This document shows, one piece after another, positions 39,001 through 63,000 of a stretch of 64,000 bases of DNA. Made by a program: the position numbers. Each line of letters opens with the position of its first letter. The first letter of the stretch is position 1. The DNA lies in NCBI RefSeq assembly GCF_026571515.1, contig NW_026856698.1, forward strand, positions 310,001 to 374,000, in the 5' to 3' direction. The DNA is from Ruditapes philippinarum (Eukaryota).

Positions 39001-42000
39001 ATGGAAACTGTAATTAGAACTCACAAACTATCATTTTAAATTGTTTCAAAACCAAATGATTTTTTTATTTTGCGTACTAGATTATATTGACAAAAATTCA
39101 GTAAATGTTTCACTTTTTACCATGATACGTCCTGTAATATGAAAATATGTTTATTTCTTTGTTGAAATTAAGACCTGTTGAAGCAATGCAGAAGAGATCC
39201 AAGTTAATTTGTTTTGATCTAAGAATACACCAAAAGAACATTTCATACTTAATTTCAAGAAAGCAAAGCTAAAATGTTCCAAACTATTAACATGCTTTGA
39301 ATTAGTACACACAATAGGCATGTTATGATACATGAAGTTCATTTCATGGATAAAATAGTAAATTTAGAAATTATGCTGTCTTTGGATATTATAAGAGCTG
39401 TTTCTTATATTGGTCTTTTCCTCTTATTTTCTTGAAGCATTACATGTACCACACAAGCAACACTTTAATTATTACTCTTTATAGTTCATTAATTTACCCC
39501 AGTAAAATTCATTTAAAGTTCTAATATGTTATAAATGACTAGCATGTTAAGCCTCGCTCAATACAGCATTTATCAGCATGGCCTGATAAAAATGATATAT
39601 CAAAGTACAGAAGCATGTTATTCTCTATTTATCAGCGGGTGGCTATTTAGGGTAATGCAGCTTTAAAATATCAAAGTTATATGAGTGTTACGTTAAATAA
39701 TGCTTAAATCATATTTCGCTTAATAAGTTTAGATCGGTGATAATTACCATTGATTAATTATAATTCTTTTCAAAATTGGTTTCTTTCACAGTAACTATCA
39801 AACTAATATGAGGCACCAGTTTGAACAAAACAAACATGTTAAACAGTAAAAGTCCCTTAATTTCTGATCTTTTGCCTATGCTAACTTTGCATGTTGTTCA
39901 GTACAAATAATGTCATTAGTTGTTGTGTTTCACCATATATAATAAGGAGAATAGTTATATTCATTTTGATTTGGTTCTTCTTTTTCCCCTAAATACTTAT
40001 AGAGTTCAGTCAGAATATACTCTATCTATTTCTTTCAGACGATTGAAGTCAGGAGACTGTACAAATATGCATCATACTCTTGTAAACCGTCTGTCAGTTG
40101 TAATGTTCATCATCCCTAAAACGCCATCAATCAAGGACTATTTGTAATTTAAAATATGTCATATTATCAAATATATGGTTGGCCTTATTGTGCCCTCAAT
40201 CTAAATATGTTCGTTAAGTGCGTATCAGATGCTTCATTTCACTAATCTGTATGTTTTCCAATAAAACATTTCTCTGCAATTATTTGTATTTAGAGTGATA
40301 AGGAGGGTTTTTGTCAGTATCAGTGATCTTTGTTACATCAATTACGTGTAGCGAGACAGTAAATATTGACAATCGAACCAAAGTCGATGAAATCGTTTAC
40401 CACCAGCACTATTACCGTCTTATCATTATAAGTAGCATCAAAATCACCAGATGATGTTTAATGATCGTTTCTGTAAAATATTCAAACATGTACTCTCATA
40501 ATTCAGATAAAAATATCTATCAAAACTCAATGCATATACGAATTGAAAAAAAATAGTTCTTTCTGTATTTTTAAGTTAACAAGGACAATGATCTTGTACA
40601 TGTAAAGAGGTTGCCTACTTGATATATATTTAATCATATTTAATGATATTTATTACAAAAGTAAGTGATATTATCAATTATAAACTGTACATATGAATGC
40701 CGTTGTAGAACTGTCAATGAGTTTTATCCTATAAAGGATGTGTATTGTTTCAATTTATTTTTACATTGTTATCTAGCAATCATGAACATACTTTGCTGTA
40801 AAATTTGCTTTATTTTTCATCATTATTTTTTTGTTTAAAAGAGTTAAGTATGTATTGAGCATATACCGCCAAATCGAAAATGAATGACGTTTTATTGTAT
40901 TACTATGGTGCTAGAAATAATGACTTATTGCATATCATGTAATGACACCGGAAAAGCTTGAATGACCCTTATTAGCCAAATAAGAAACTCAGGCATGGAA
41001 ATAAGAAATTAACCCAATTAAAAAATGGGTAGGATAATATGAGGTCACTATACATTGTTGCAATACTGAATTTTCATTGGAGGAGCCTTGTCCAATACAA
41101 GTTTTGCACCTGCGTACAAATATTATGTATAATGACGGCTTTATTCACACCACTAACTTCTTGACATTCGTATAATTTTGATACTTGGAGTACAATAAGG
41201 ATGTGATGTTATTTTTAATGGACTCTGAAAATAAAAATGACGGGGTACAATAGTGATTTGATATGGACTTTTGGTCTCAGAAAAATGAAAACGAGGCTAG
41301 ATGGAGATTAAAGTGATTTGATATGGAAGTTCTGGACTGGCAAAATGAAACTGTGGCTTTATTAATAAGATTGGATCCAACATTTATGGCAGATCACATG
41401 GTGCAAGAGCTAGAAGCTTATTAGTTACAGTAAAAAATAAAAAGTGTGAAATAATACAATATATATAACTGTGCAAAAATGAATAGTTTATCTGAAATAG
41501 GTAAAAGAAAATTAGAAATTATTTCTAAAATAGACAATGCATCAAAGAGAGTCATTGTTTTACATCGACAGTATTCAGGATAATCTTTAACCGTAGTCGA
41601 AATGTTTTTTATATCATTATATCATTTTTTTTGTAAAAGAGATAAATGTTTCCGTAAGAGAAATCCTATTAGAATAACAAGTTTAACAATCCCTATCATC
41701 AACACCTCGTTTTGTCGTTAGGAATTTATGTAATTTTAGACTAATATTTGACATTAATTGTGATATATCTCGACCAGAGAATGAGCTTGTTGGCAGTTAT
41801 GTATGGACTGTAGCGTTGCACATATTTATTGTGAGAATTCAAGATCATTTGTTTAGATTGTTTCTATTTAATTACAGACATTGCAGTTTAACATTGACAA
41901 TAACGGGATCAAAGTTAGTTGAATTATTGGCCATTTTAAGAAATAGAGAAGCTGTCATTTCCTGTAAATAAAAACAATGCATTGTCTGTTAGAAAGGTAC

Positions 42001-60000: not shown

Positions 60001-63000
60001 TCCCGACCATCAACAGCTCGTTTTGTCGTTAGGAATTTATCTAATTTTAGACTAATATTTGACATTAATTGTGATATATCTCGACCAGAGAATGAGCTTC
60101 TTGGCAGTTATGTATGGACTGTAGCGTTGCACATATTTATTTGAGAAGATTTATGATCATTTGTCTAGATTTGCCCTGTTCAATTACACGAACTGCAATC
60201 GAACAATACCACTCAATTGAATCAACGTTAGATGAATAATAGCTATTTTAGGCAATAGAGAAGATGGTGTTTCGAACCGATTAGGAATACACTCTAATCC
60301 CTTTCAAGCAAATCAATGAACGTGATAAAGGTTTAGGTAATGCATATTTTGAAATACTTCGTAAAATTAATTACAAATCAAAATTAAACTAATGAGGCAA
60401 TACATTACAATTGTATATATAAATAGCAAAATCAACTAAAAGCTGTCAGTTTGTGTTAAATACATCATTAACATACAAGACAAGTTTATTTCACAGAAAA
60501 ATGAAATATAATTATTTGTATATATAAATCGATCTGATACCAACATGTGGTTGTAGGGAAGAGGTTATATTTAAATGATAGAGGCTCCGAGATTTCAAAA
60601 ACTGTTTACAAGCTAGATTATGGATTAATTATTATTGATTATATATTACCTGATCCACGTTCTCTGGCATCGGCTTAAACATAATTCAACATTCAAATTA
60701 TGAAATTAAGAATTAAGTATCATAAGCCGATGTAAGTCGTATACTGCGGAAAAGGTTTTAGCGATTAACGTCCTTGGAAACTAAGATGATAAATACTTCA
60801 TAATCTCATAACTGGGAACTCTGTTTACATAAATAAATGAATAAATAAATAAAACTATGTAAGTTATCATACAAAAGTATCTTCAAATGCGATAAAAATT
60901 GCGAAGGTAATTAGTTGTATGAGATAACGTCCTATTTGTTAACATAGCCTGCCGCTTACTATAATCTCATGAATATGGAAAGAGGTGAGAAGGTGAAATA
61001 AATGCCTATTATAGTATGCATCTGTCTCCATGTTAACAAAATAAGGAAGATATTTATAAATATGGAATGATATTTCATTACGCCTGCAGAGAAATGAAAA
61101 GTCTCAGATGAGACATGCTCGTAATTGGAAAAATTGGAAAATACGGCAAATATTTTCAGGACACACGTGTGTCTAATATCAATGTGGTGAATCGGTCAAG
61201 GGAACATTCTTCTTTGAAGTTAAGAATACATGAGAATGATCAAGCTTTGCATAGAAAATTGTTTAACAGTACATGTATCTACAAATACCGGTTCATTTAA
61301 AATATATTGATACAAGCGAGGTTTTACGCACGCGTAAAAAGGCTGCGCAGGAATGGTCAGCTGTGCAGTGCATACTTTAAAAAGAACCCAAAAAATTGCT
61401 ATGTAGACGAGTTGTTGAAATTAAAGCATAACGACAAGAAAATTTCATTTCGCCATACTAGTAGTACTCGTTTTATACTGTGACATGACGGGAACCCTTT
61501 GGTCAATGTCGTATTGTGCCAGGAATCCGACACCATGTAAACAGAGCTGACACTTTGACAATATTAATTTTATCCCAATTAAACAATATCTTAACTTTTA
61601 ATAAGCAAGTGACAAACAATAAAACTCAAATTTGAGCATAAACATAGTATACATGTATAAGTCATTAAAGGGATTATCTAATTTTTAGATTTTTCTGATT
61701 TTTCAAACACGAGCAGAACAATTCATAGCATATGTTACAGGAACAAACCACATCATTTAGAAGTTCTGGATCCGCAACAGACGGAGACATGGTAATAGGT
61801 TCCTGTACTCCATCTTCAGTTTTTTTTTGTATCTAAACTGCAAAGACGGTGGCAAATGCTCTACGCCTATTGTTGCATTTCGCCATATATACAGCTTTCT
61901 ACACATCGCAGACAATGCAAAGCAAAACTGTTTTCAGTACGAGGCAAATATCAAGGAGATACAGACTTCAATGCCTTAGAACATCGAAAGGCATTCTATG
62001 ATGTACATTCAGTGCTACCGTTGAAGAGACCAGCAACAAAGCATGCACAATCCTGATTTTGCGATGATGCGAGAAAGACTTTTCTCTCGTGTCTTTTAAA
62101 ATTTGATATGTGTATGCATTTAAATCCTTCTTTTCTTTCCTTTTACATAAAATGAACTTGTTTTATAACATCCCGATAAAAAGGAATCTGATAAGATAAT
62201 GTTATGCTGCTCTTGAGTTAACATATTGTATAAGTGGTAAACAGATATACCATTGCATATAACAATAACGTGTCTACATTTCTAATACCAGTTGTCTGGT
62301 CTTGAAGCAGGTTTCCAAGCACCTTCATGAAATCGGACCTTTTACATTTGAGCATTGACCCATCTTCAGAGAACATACTTGTTGGAACCGTTGTGTTTTC
62401 ATATGCAAATACCCGTTGGTTTTAAAAGTTGACAGCTAGTAGTCGCTGAAACGTAACTTCAATGGATATTGTTTTTAAACGCTGTTAAGTTTTAGTTCTT
62501 TTCTTAGGCTTTTTCTTTATGAGGATCTTATTTCTTGTCATTGGACTATAGAAGCTTTTCGAATCTGGGTCAGTCCAATCGGGTTTTACAATTTATCCTC
62601 CGAAATAATTTGTTCATGAGTTTTGCACATTAATCAAAGTAATCTAACATGCTTTTCTCCGTTTCTTCTGTAGCTTGGATGCAGGTTGCAACATTGATTA
62701 GTCTTTGTAGTGTTTTTCTTGTATTAAACTGGTCTAATAAATTAGCATCGAATGACGTAACCATTTTTGCTACGTTTTTGTTGTACAAACTGCCTTCTGA
62801 AAACGTGTTTCATCGTCAAACATTCTTTTACTTGAATAAACACTTTGTTTAAACATAAATGTTTGGTACAATTGTCTGAAAAATTGCACTCTTGAAAAAT
62901 TGCATTTGAAACTAGTTTCTCTAAAAAAATGTTATTAATCAGATTTCAAAAAAAAAAAAAAAAAAAATTATGGATAACTTTGAATGAACAGCTTAGCCGG

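What the first reader, a model, noticed from the sequence alone, without database searches (positions are those of the whole stretch)
40171..60141. Duplicated A-B cassette: near-perfect cores separated by poorly alignable spacers
Seen: A core 40171-40262 equals 58668-58759 (92/92). B core 41706-41830 versus 60017-60141 differs at 2 of 125 positions. Order and orientation are the same and the spacers are ~1.45 and ~1.26 kb. Identity falls just outside the cores, and the spacers share little recognisable sequence by eye. A neutral segmental duplication should decay evenly. Inference: strong purifying selection or gene conversion on two paired functional elements (an enhancer pair, two exons of a non-coding transcript, or structured RNAs).
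Basis: partly seen in the sequence, partly recalled or inferred. Interest (0 to 1): 0.7.

Follow-up and report, generated by a model that had tools for sequence, protein, structure and literature searches.

The report
Repeat pair with freshly homogenised cores
Two copies of a two-part, non-coding repeat in a transposon-rich, clam-like genome are about 20% diverged overall, yet each part holds a near-identical 92- or 125-base patch, most likely written recently from one copy onto the other.

Summary
40171-40262 equals 58668-58759 (92 of 92), and 41706-41830 differs from 60017-60141 at 2 of 125 positions. Neither run is reached in 20000 permutations of the differences.

The cores are not a unique pair. 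They sit inside longer homologous blocks (A about 320 nt, B about 355 nt) with a flat identity of about 80%. Older copies also lie in the window: A3, A4 and B3. The left edge of the A core in copy 2 lies 9 nt from a 2029-nt 5'-truncated LINE insertion with a 7-nt target duplication, and the rest of A2 lies at 56538-56629. The spacers are no more alike than unrelated sequence.

I found no RNA family, no tRNA and no stable fold. There is no coding signature, and no Helentron or MITE end structures.

Relative to third copies, the 1-versus-2 identity of the cores is excessive (Fisher p = 0.0016 for A, 2e-6 for B). The best reading is an old composite repeat overlaid by short interlocus gene-conversion tracts, perhaps aided by constraint. 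Rivals are master-level transposon constraint and a small two-exon transcription unit. Genome-wide copy number could not be checked.

The parts
40081..40399 (+). A1 block: full extent of homology with the other A copies; contains the perfect core 40171-40262
   Evidence: The local alignment starts at 40081 / 56538 with score 50, against a shuffle maximum of 25. Self-BLAST gives 40163-40371 vs 58658-58857 at 87.7%. nhmmer extent is; that model was built from these same copies.
40171..40262 (+). A core, copy 1 (92 nt, identical to 58668-58759)
   Evidence: All six reading frames contain a stop. Fold z-scores are 0.01 and -0.02.
40400..41606 (.). Spacer 1, not homologous to spacer 2; no other copy in the window
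41607..41961 (+). B1 block; contains the core 41706-41830
   Evidence: BLAST gives 41607-41961 vs 59909-60273 at 80.5% over 369 columns. Flank identity is shown in 30-nt bins.
41706..41830 (+). B core, copy 1 (123 of 125 identical to 60017-60141)
   Evidence: Fold z-scores are +1.07 and +0.99.
42042..44596 (+). LINE1: a 5'-truncated non-LTR retrotransposon abutting B1. Coding similarity runs 42084-44187 in three frame pieces (two frame changes). The 3' end near 44596 was read from the sequence and is an inference.
   Evidence: Pfam RVT_1 4e-16. Relatives carry the endonuclease domains PF03372 / PF14529. tblastn map. The tail was read. No target duplication was found.
56538..56629 (+). Left part of A2, split from the rest by LINE2; about 82% identical to 40081-40169
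   Evidence: (E = 0.0068)
56630..58658 (-). LINE2: a 2029-nt 5'-truncated, decayed non-LTR retrotransposon inserted into A2. It is flanked by the 7-nt direct repeat ATTATCA (56623-56629 and 58659-58665).
   Evidence: Sequence read. In tblastn, relative P0122 residues 504-1088 of 1095 map to 58604-57198 in frames -3/-2/-1/-2/-3, with residues 700-818 missing. RVT_1 5.4e-08.
58659..58884 (+). Right part of A2, with the core 58668-58759
58885..59908 (.). Spacer 2, unrelated to spacer 1
59909..60273 (+). B2 block, with the core 60017-60141
50308..50546 (-). A3: older solo A copy. Core 82% identical to A1 and A2; no B partner detected.
   Evidence: BLAST 40101-40303 vs 50536-50335 at 78.9%, E = 5e-42
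33711..33877 (-). A4: older solo A copy with a short internal insertion
   Evidence: BLAST 33775-33840 vs 40212-40146 at 80.6%, E = 7e-9
38500..38807 (+). B3: older solo B copy. Core 77% identical to B1. Has stops in the frame that is open in B1 and B2.
   Evidence: BLAST 38556-38758 vs 60007-60208 at 73.5%, E = 1e-25

Best explanation
A and B are the two conserved modules of an old, low-copy, locally clustered composite repeat. Module A is about 320 nt and module B about 355 nt. They lie in the same order and orientation and are separated by unrelated sequence of 1.0-1.2 kb. The host is a transposon-rich, AT-rich genome of bivalve type.

The two cassettes are old: their modules are about 20% diverged along their whole length, and transposons have since landed in and beside them. 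The near-perfect cores are a younger layer on this old background. I think they are short tracts of interlocus (non-allelic) gene conversion between the two cassettes, which lie 18.5 kb apart on the same strand.

The A tract fills the stretch of uninterrupted homology between two heterologies. On the left is the LINE2 insertion and an (AT)n length difference. On the right is an 11-nt indel.

Some constraint on the same segments probably helps. They are also the best-kept part of the older copies, and that would keep them similar enough to go on converting.

What is shown: the anatomy, the step-like identity, the excess of 1=2 sites in the cores, and the insertion. What is inferred: conversion as the process, its direction, and any function of the cores.
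For: 1. The identity profile is a step, not a gradient. The cores are 92 of 92 and 123 of 125. The flanking 30-nt bins stay flat at about 70-87% out to the block ends, where homology stops abruptly. That is two ages of similarity in one block.

2. Third-copy test on three-way alignments. Among variable sites in the flanks, copies 1 and 2 agree at 36 and differ at 24 for A, and agree at 52 and differ at 58 for B. In the cores the counts are 16 vs 0 (A, Fisher p = 0.0016) and 28 vs 2 (B, p = 2e-6). A uniformly slower rate in the cores therefore does not explain the identity.

3. Three of the four core edges coincide with heterologies. The left edge of the A core is 9 nt from the LINE2 junction and sits at a 2-nt (AT)n indel. 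The right edge of the A core is at an 11-nt indel. The right edge of the B core is at a 1-nt indel.

4. Cassette 2 is not a fresh insertion. LINE2 lies inside A2 with an intact 7-nt target duplication, and has since acquired at least 4 frame changes and lost about 119 codons. The 92 nt next to it nevertheless show no change.

5. The copies are close and co-oriented. All 7 family copies lie within 33.7-60.3 kb and none lies in 1-33.7 kb.

6. The rival functional readings have no support: folding, Rfam and tRNA, coding.

7. Mosaic divergence caused by interlocus conversion in repeats and tandem paralogues is described in the literature: PMC6598467, PMC4921805, PMC3924837 and bioRxiv 10.1101/2025.10.29.685298. 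I saw only the search listing and the start of each abstract.
Against: 1. A 20% diverged background should suppress heteroduplex formation. Two separate recent tracts in the same pair of loci therefore require either ongoing conversion of segments that never diverged, or luck.

2. The cores are also less diverged from the old copies than the flanks are: d(1,3) is 0.176 vs 0.288 for A (p = 0.066) and 0.232 vs 0.480 for B (p = 7e-6). Conversion between copies 1 and 2 alone does not predict this. It points to constraint, either in the host or in a transposon master lineage. The B3 flanks align poorly, so the B figure is inflated.

3. The left edge of the B core has no heterology.

4. Conversion does not explain why the spacers are unrelated. 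The origin of the cassette as a unit remains unexplained.

5. GC content of the cores (0.33-0.35) is barely above that of the flanks (0.24-0.34), so there is no signal of biased conversion.

6. Only two young copies are available. There is no outgroup and no population data, and no eukaryotic genome collection could be searched.
Confidence: 0.4

Rival explanations
1. Master-level transposon constraint. The cassettes are copies of a non-autonomous mobile element built of two cis-acting end modules and an exchangeable middle, as in the modular non-autonomous Helentrons of bivalves. The cores are the segments the transposition machinery needs, so they stay constant in the active lineage. The flanks and the middle differ between subfamilies. 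Under this reading both cassettes are fairly recent insertions from two subfamilies.
For: It is a family, not a pair: 4 A copies and 3 B copies in the window. Blocks end abruptly, and the left ends of the A copies agree to within about 30 nt. The middles are unrelated. The cores are the best-kept part in old copies too. One predicted protein from elsewhere, P0242 (112 aa), is a translation of another B copy: 51% identity over 47 residues to 41711-41851, and it also matches B2 and B3. In oyster HINEs, related flanking modules carry unrelated central repeats (PMC7492417, passages read).
Against: No end hallmarks were found. There is no inverted repeat of at least 11 nt with at most 1 mismatch between the outer parts of A and B. 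The only one shared by both cassettes lies inside the cores. No shared 3' hairpin and no target duplication were found. The spacers contain no tandem array. All 7 copies cluster in 27 kb of the 64 kb, with none in the first 33.7 kb. Only 2 of 1.84 billion representative proteins match the B reading frame, and there was no word-sharing candidate among proteins of 51-165 aa. Both results argue for low copy number. The decayed LINE2 inside A2 argues that cassette 2 is older than its unchanged core suggests. Three of the 7 copies are solo.
Confidence: 0.25
2. A small host transcription unit present in two copies. Under this model the A core holds a core promoter, a short first exon and its splice donor. 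The B core holds a splice acceptor and a second exon. Purifying selection keeps the exons and signals, probably together with concerted evolution, while the intron turns over. The transcript may be non-coding or may encode a peptide of about 43 residues.
For: A + strand model fits both cassettes. There is an ATG at 40229 and a GTATGT donor at 40249. A pyrimidine-rich acceptor ends at 41721. The reading frame is then open to the end of the B core, and B2 has a TGA exactly at that end (60142-60144). The ATG-plus-donor segment is recognisable in A3 and A4. Core edges roughly match these signals. In B1 the same frame is open for 94 codons, and in P0242 for 112.
Against: The same loose model is satisfied by 330 of 5000 random pairs of window segments. 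Both B1/B2 differences change the residue in this frame. B1-versus-B3 differences fall 7:7:9 over codon positions, and B3 has in-frame stops. There is no Pfam family, no Atlas look-alike, and the recognition score of 1403 is low. Selection alone rarely keeps 215 of 217 bases, including silent sites. In B1 the 1-nt indel removes the stop and adds 47 codons. No expression data are available.
Confidence: 0.15
3. Assembly or polishing artefact: short-read polishing has copied one repeat copy's sequence onto the other over read-sized stretches.
For: Tract lengths of 92 and 125 nt are on the scale of short reads. This is an inference only. No call bears on it.
Against: Cross-mapping needs segments that are already very similar, and the flanks are only about 80% identical. 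The two B differences and the clean indel-bounded edges look biological. Reads were not available.
Confidence: 0.05
4. The cores are structured non-coding RNA genes (small RNAs or hairpins).
For: There is none beyond the conservation itself.
Against: Six folds (3 core sequences, both strands) gave z-scores of 0.01, -0.02, 1.07, 0.99, 0.72 and -0.20. For B1/B2/B3 the covariation term is +0.79, and only 3 of 48 predicted pairs show a double change. There were 0 Rfam matches at gathering score in the whole window, 5 matches with E of 0.5-3.7 far below gathering in 40000-42050, and 0 tRNAs.
Confidence: 0.03

Closest known systems
Interlocus (non-allelic) gene conversion between dispersed repeats or tandem paralogues, giving mosaic divergence or islands of concerted evolution
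   Same: Short tracts of near-identity lie on an older diverged background. The copies are close together and in the same orientation. There is discordance with a third copy. Tract ends fall at heterologies.
   Different: Two separate tracts occur in one pair of loci. The background is already about 20% diverged. No outgroup or population data are available to show the event, and donor and recipient are unknown. I saw only the listing and the start of the abstracts for PMC6598467, PMC4921805, PMC3924837 and 10.1101/2025.10.29.685298.
HINE / DINE-1 / 'pearl' type non-autonomous Helentrons of bivalves and insects
   Same: The build is modular: a left module, an exchangeable middle and a right module, always in one orientation. 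Related flanks can carry unrelated middles. The host is a bivalve (passages of PMC7492417 and PMC4067079).
   Different: The defining substructures were not found: 11-13 nt subterminal inverted repeats, the nearby short inverted repeat, a microsatellite in the left flank, a central array of 100-500 nt monomers, and a 3' palindrome. The modules here are 320-355 nt, against 50-100 nt flanks in the oyster elements. The supplementary tables listing those substructures could not be read.
SINE families that share a highly conserved central domain (CORE, V, Deu, Meta; recalled, not looked up)
   Same: A strongly conserved inner segment has more variable sequence on both sides within a repeat family.
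   Different: There is no tRNA-, 5S- or 7SL-like head, no simple-repeat or LINE-like tail, two different modules are coupled over more than 1 kb, and copy number appears low.
Paralogous conserved non-coding elements / ultraconserved elements
   Same: Near-perfect identity of about 100-nt non-coding segments in otherwise diverged DNA.
   Different: Such elements are defined by conservation between species, which could not be tested. Here the segments belong to a repeat family whose older members have decayed by 18-23% in the same segment.

Membership tests
Interlocus gene conversion tract | A run of identity significantly longer than the background divergence allows | tested here: met
   0 of 20000 permutations reach the observed runs, for both A and B.
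Interlocus gene conversion tract | Discordant relationship with a third copy inside versus outside the tract | tested here: met
   Variable sites with 1=2 versus 1!=2: A flanks 36/24, A core 16/0 (p = 0.0016); B flanks 52/58, B core 28/2 (p = 2e-6). The same pattern would arise if only copies 1 and 2 were under constraint.
Interlocus gene conversion tract | Cores co-vary within a genome but differ between species or haplotypes | not testable with these tools
   No eukaryotic genome or read collection was available.
HINE / non-autonomous Helentron | Subterminal inverted repeats of 11-13 nt at the two ends | tested here: not met
   I scanned A blocks against B blocks for inverted 11-mers with at most 1 mismatch. 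Only TAAATATGTTC / GCACATATTTA is shared by both cassettes, and it lies inside the cores, 115-130 nt from the block ends. There is none between the A2 left part and B2 (0 hits).
HINE / non-autonomous Helentron | Palindrome (stem-loop) after the 3' inverted repeat | tested here: not met
   Perfect 6-nt stems with 3-12 nt loops: 0 in 41830-42010 and 1 in 60140-60320, not shared.
HINE / non-autonomous Helentron | Central tandem repeats and a microsatellite in the left flank | tested here: not met
   TRF finds no array in 40400-41606 or 58885-59908. There are only a 2-copy 37-nt repeat (58875-58943) and 2-3 degenerate 55-60-nt repeats (41187-41358).
HINE / non-autonomous Helentron | Insertion into a TT dinucleotide, shown by empty sites | not testable with these tools
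   Block ends are known only to within a few nt, and no empty sites are available.
TIR transposon / MITE | Terminal inverted repeats and a target-site duplication | tested here: not met
   No terminal inverted repeat is common to both cassettes, and no flanking direct repeat was seen (sequence read).
SINE | Pol III head derived from tRNA, 5S or 7SL | tested here: not met
   0 tRNA-like genes and 0 Rfam matches at gathering score.
Structured non-coding RNA | Fold more stable than shuffles, with covariation | tested here: not met
   z-scores from -0.20 to +1.07. The covariation term is +0.79 with 3 sequences; three sequences give little power.
Protein-coding exons | Open frame kept across copies, third-position bias, homologues | tested here: not met
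   The A core has stops in all 6 frames. The B frame is open in B1 and B2 but broken in B3. Differences fall 7:7:9 over codon positions. There is no Pfam family. The only protein relative is an unannotated ORF from another B copy.

The most novel reading that the evidence does not exclude
The two cores are the promoter-plus-first-exon and the second exon of a small lineage-specific two-exon gene, encoding either a micropeptide of about 43 residues or a short non-coding RNA. The gene is present in two local copies whose exons are kept base-for-base identical by concerted evolution, while the intron has been replaced entirely. The older A and B copies are its dead relatives.
Probability: 0.12. 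Interest if true: 0.5.

Novelty: new member of a known kind. Interest (0 to 1): 0.3.

Why it matters
The finding is a clean small example of mosaic divergence. Inside one pair of repeat copies, two ages of similarity sit side by side, and a datable transposon insertion marks one tract edge. If conversion is confirmed, it shows that short non-allelic conversion operates between about 20% diverged repeats in a bivalve-type genome. That would bias repeat-age estimates based on copy divergence, and it could spread or preserve regulatory motifs carried by repeats. If the cores instead prove to be exons or cis-acting transposon signals, they define a functional element that no current library holds. 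As it stands, this is an ordinary kind of genome feature rather than a new type of system.

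Tried and rejected
- **Structured RNA.** Folds of the cores on both strands, alifold of B1/B2/B3, Rfam at gathering score over the whole window, Rfam permissive on 40000-42050 and ARAGORN gave nothing.
- **Coding.** I ran six-frame translation and Pfam on 17 plus 121 ORFs. Those Pfam scans found only LINE RT, Tc3-type HTH, C2H2, QRICH1 and DUF3504. A word-index protein search with the 94-aa B1 ORF found no candidate among proteins of 51-165 aa. The Atlas gave no usable hit. 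Pfam on P0241-P0243 was uninformative.
- **P0241.** This 653-aa protein made of 57-aa tandem units matched the post-core part of B1 at E = 1.6e-10. That value sums 11 repeats. A single unit scores only E = 0.006 against the window, so I treat it as a weak lead.
- **End structures.** I looked for inverted repeats, hairpins and target duplications and found none that define an element.
- **Spacer homology.** Sensitive BLAST, local and global alignment with controls, and a search for other copies found none.
- **A larger duplicated unit.** A(-) lies about 6 kb upstream of A(+) in both halves (33877 to 40081, and 50546 to 56538). The intervening 6 kb share nothing at E < 0.01. tblastx of the two halves finds only A, B and LINE RT.
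- **A and B as diverged copies of one unit.** The local score of 13 is reached by 124 of 300 shuffles, so this is rejected.
- **Biased conversion.** GC content of the cores is not distinctive.
- **More copies elsewhere.** Two pattern scans of the prokaryote-only genome-contig collection found 0 matches each. This says nothing about the source genome.
- **Spliced model.** The joined exon sequence was not searched, folded or printed. Only exon 2, as part of the B1 ORF, was searched. The coding part of exon 1 (20 nt) is too short to search.

Full report
**Setting**

The window is 30% G+C throughout. It holds one N run, 9480-9759, which I left alone. No RNA family reaches Rfam's gathering score and there are no tRNA genes.

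Recognisable coding remnants are almost all mobile-element genes:
- two non-LTR retrotransposon (LINE) fragments;
- a Tc3-type transposase HTH;
- a QRICH1 + DUF3504 pair;
- one C2H2 zinc-finger ORF.

These come from Pfam on 17 and 121 ORFs. Named relatives of the LINE proteins come from the clams Mercenaria and Ruditapes and the mussel Dreissena, and from clam-symbiont bins that evidently carry host DNA. I therefore take the window for a bivalve-type animal genome. It is not human.

**The observation**

40171-40262 is identical to 58668-58759 (92 of 92), and the match cannot be extended by one base. 41706-41830 differs from 60017-60141 at 41730 and 41789 only. When the observed differences are redistributed at random over the aligned blocks, 0 of 20000 permutations reach these runs.

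**What surrounds the cores**

Homology does not end at the cores. Self-BLAST and profile searches give an A block of about 320 nt and a B block of about 355 nt:
- A1 is 40081-40399.
- A2 is 56538-56629 plus 58659-58884.
- B1 is 41607-41961.
- B2 is 59909-60273.

Outside the cores, identity drops at once to about 70-87% per 30-nt bin. It stays flat to the block ends, where it stops abruptly. The profile is therefore a step, not a gradient.

**A transposon explains one edge**

The left part of A2 is not missing. It lies 2 kb upstream at 56538-56629 and is about 82% identical to 40081-40169. The alignment score is 50, against a shuffle maximum of 25.

Between the two parts lies a 2029-nt insertion, 56630-58658, flanked by the 7-nt direct repeat ATTATCA. 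A1 has that heptamer only once. The insert is a 5'-truncated LINE on the minus strand. Residues 504-1088 of a 1095-residue relative map to 58604-57198, with four frame changes and about 119 residues missing.

The perfect A core starts 9 nt from this junction, right after a 2-nt (AT)n length difference. It ends at an 11-nt indel. The B core ends at a 1-nt indel.

A second 5'-truncated LINE (coding 42084-44187, two frame changes) abuts B1. I found no target duplication for it.

**It is a family**

Three further, older copies lie in the window:
- A3, 50308-50546, minus strand;
- A4, 33711-33877, minus strand;
- B3, 38500-38807, plus strand.

Their cores are 79-82% (A) and 76-77% (B) identical to those of the young pair. 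None of the three has a partner of the other kind nearby.

All seven copies lie between 33.7 and 60.3 kb. None lies in the first 33.7 kb. The profile E-values for the seven copies are circular, because the models were built from them. The independent evidence is the self-BLAST.

A and B are not related to each other: their alignment score of 13 is reached by 124 of 300 shuffles.

**The spacers**

The 1.2-kb and 1.0-kb spacers are no more alike than unrelated DNA:
- Local score is 21, equal to the maximum of 60 shuffles.
- Global score is 132, against 145 +/- 12 for shuffles and 131 +/- 22 for 13 unrelated window segments.
- They have no other copy in the window.

Downstream of B there is no homology either. 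No larger duplicated unit exists.

Since the block flanks are still 80% alike, the spacers are unrelated by structure, not by decay. The cassette was therefore not made by simply copying A-spacer-B. How A and B came to travel together remains unexplained.

**What the cores are not**

- Folding gives z-scores between -0.20 and +1.07 on both strands. Three B copies give no covariation support. A permissive Rfam scan gives only chance snoRNA hits with E >= 0.5.
- The A core has stops in all six frames.
- The B core is open in one + frame in B1 and B2 but broken in B3.
- The 94-aa B1 ORF has no Pfam family. It has no word-sharing relative among proteins of 51-165 aa and no Atlas look-alike.
- An exhaustive HMMER scan of 1.84 billion representatives gave two hits. 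P0242 (112 aa, unannotated) is clearly a translation of another B-family copy elsewhere: 51% identity over 47 residues to B1, and it also matches B2 and B3. P0241 is a tandem-repeat translation whose score is inflated by 11 repeats. A single unit scores E = 0.006 against the window, so it is a weak lead only.
- The structures that define bivalve HINEs (passages of PMC4067079 and PMC7492417) were not found. These are subterminal inverted repeats, a 3' palindrome, a microsatellite and a central tandem array.

**A spliced model**

On the + strand the A core holds an ATG (40229), followed 20 nt later by a GTATGT donor (40249). The B core starts with a pyrimidine-rich acceptor ending at 41721. The frame set by the ATG is then open to the end of the B core, where B2 has a TGA (60142-60144). 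B1, which is one base shorter there, reads on for 47 codons.

I treated this exon by exon. Exon 2 was searched as part of the B1 ORF. The coding part of exon 1 is too short to search. The joined sequence was not searched, folded or printed.

The model is weak:
- The same loose criteria are met by 330 of 5000 random segment pairs from the window.
- Both B1/B2 differences change the residue.
- B1-versus-B3 differences fall 7:7:9 over codon positions.

**Why I favour conversion**

In three-way alignments, the share of variable sites at which copies 1 and 2 differ is 24 of 60 (A) and 58 of 110 (B) in the flanks. In the cores it is 0 of 16 and 2 of 30 (Fisher p = 0.0016 and 2e-6). A uniformly slower rate in the cores cannot explain this.

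Either copies 1 and 2 exchanged these segments recently, or only these two copies are under near-absolute constraint. Near-absolute constraint on 215 of 217 bases, with no RNA structure and no coding signal, is hard to motivate.

Several features fit short interlocus conversion tracts:
- the step-like profile;
- three of four edges falling at heterologies;
- the closeness and shared orientation of the copies;
- an unchanged core lying next to a LINE that has had time to decay.

By my own rough reckoning, the flanks show about one indel per eight substitutions. The five or more disruptions in 1.4 kb of LINE2 then imply roughly 3% divergence, or about 13 expected differences in the two cores over both lineages. 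Two are observed. This is an inference resting on several assumptions.

**What speaks against pure conversion**

The cores are also less diverged from the old copies than the flanks are: 0.176 vs 0.288 for A (p = 0.066) and 0.232 vs 0.480 for B (p = 7e-6). The B3 flanks align poorly, which inflates the B figure. This pattern is what one expects if the lineage leading to copies 1 and 2 was constrained in the cores, either in the host or in a transposon master lineage.

A 20% diverged background should hinder conversion unless the cores never diverged. GC content gives no sign of biased conversion. I therefore rate conversion, probably helped by constraint, at 0.4.

The rivals are:
- a modular mobile element with cis-acting cores, 0.25;
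- a small two-exon transcription unit, 0.15;
- a polishing artefact, 0.05;
- structured RNAs, 0.03.

**What stayed unchecked**

- No eukaryotic genome, read or transcript collection was available, so copy number, orthologues, expression and polymorphism are all open.
- Two pattern scans of the prokaryote-only genome collection found nothing, as expected.
- Paper supplements, which hold the tables of HINE substructures, were not read.
- For the gene-conversion papers I saw only the listing and the start of the abstracts.

**Verdict**

The feature is real and statistically solid. The specific functional guesses do not gain support, and the setting is a decaying low-copy repeat family in transposon-rich DNA. 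It is a new member of a known kind, of modest interest.

Noticed in passing
34365-35236: A G+C-richer island (0.41) made of 22-nt and 30-nt tandem units arranged as two inverted arms. 34365-34636 is 96% identical to the reverse complement of 34965-35236. It lies directly beside the transposase remnant.
   Followed up: partly
35224-36929 (-): A series of minus-strand ORFs. One of them (35727-36338) has a Tc3-type transposase HTH (E = 1.7e-5, below Pfam's cut-off). It is probably a decayed Tc1/mariner element.
   Followed up: no
52763-53544 (+): Adjacent ORFs with a QRICH1 domain (1.6e-8) and DUF3504 (3.4e-8). From recall, this pairing is associated with Crypton-derived genes. It lies between A3 and A2.
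   Followed up: no
28300-29454 (+): A 385-codon open frame ending in a C2H2 zinc finger (2.2e-8). It is the longest non-transposon ORF in the window, and whether it is a host gene or transposon-derived is unknown.
   Followed up: no
33877-40081 and 50546-56538: In both halves of the region an inverted A copy lies about 6 kb (6204 and 5992 nt) upstream of the forward A copy of the cassette. The 6-kb intervals share no sequence. This may be coincidence or the remains of a larger inverted arrangement.
   Followed up: partly
38500-41961: B3, A1 and B1 follow one another at nearly equal spacing (about 1.56 and 1.59 kb between matching anchor points). A and B are nevertheless not detectably related.
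   Followed up: partly
41850-41962: The translated post-core part of B1 weakly resembles a 57-residue (171-nt) tandem unit of an unannotated 653-aa predicted protein, P0241. This may be a link to a satellite-like repeat. A single unit scores only E = 0.006 against the window.
   Followed up: partly
55578-56009 (-): A further weak reverse-transcriptase fragment (tblastn E = 6e-5 to P0001), just upstream of the left part of A2.
   Followed up: no
831-1529: A G+C-richer stretch (0.36) with long overlapping open frames on both strands (233, 168 and 132 codons) and no Pfam match.
   Followed up: no
37734-37802 and 46971-47042: Another short dispersed repeat pair (78% over 72 nt, E = 2.5e-8), unrelated to A and B.
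   Followed up: no
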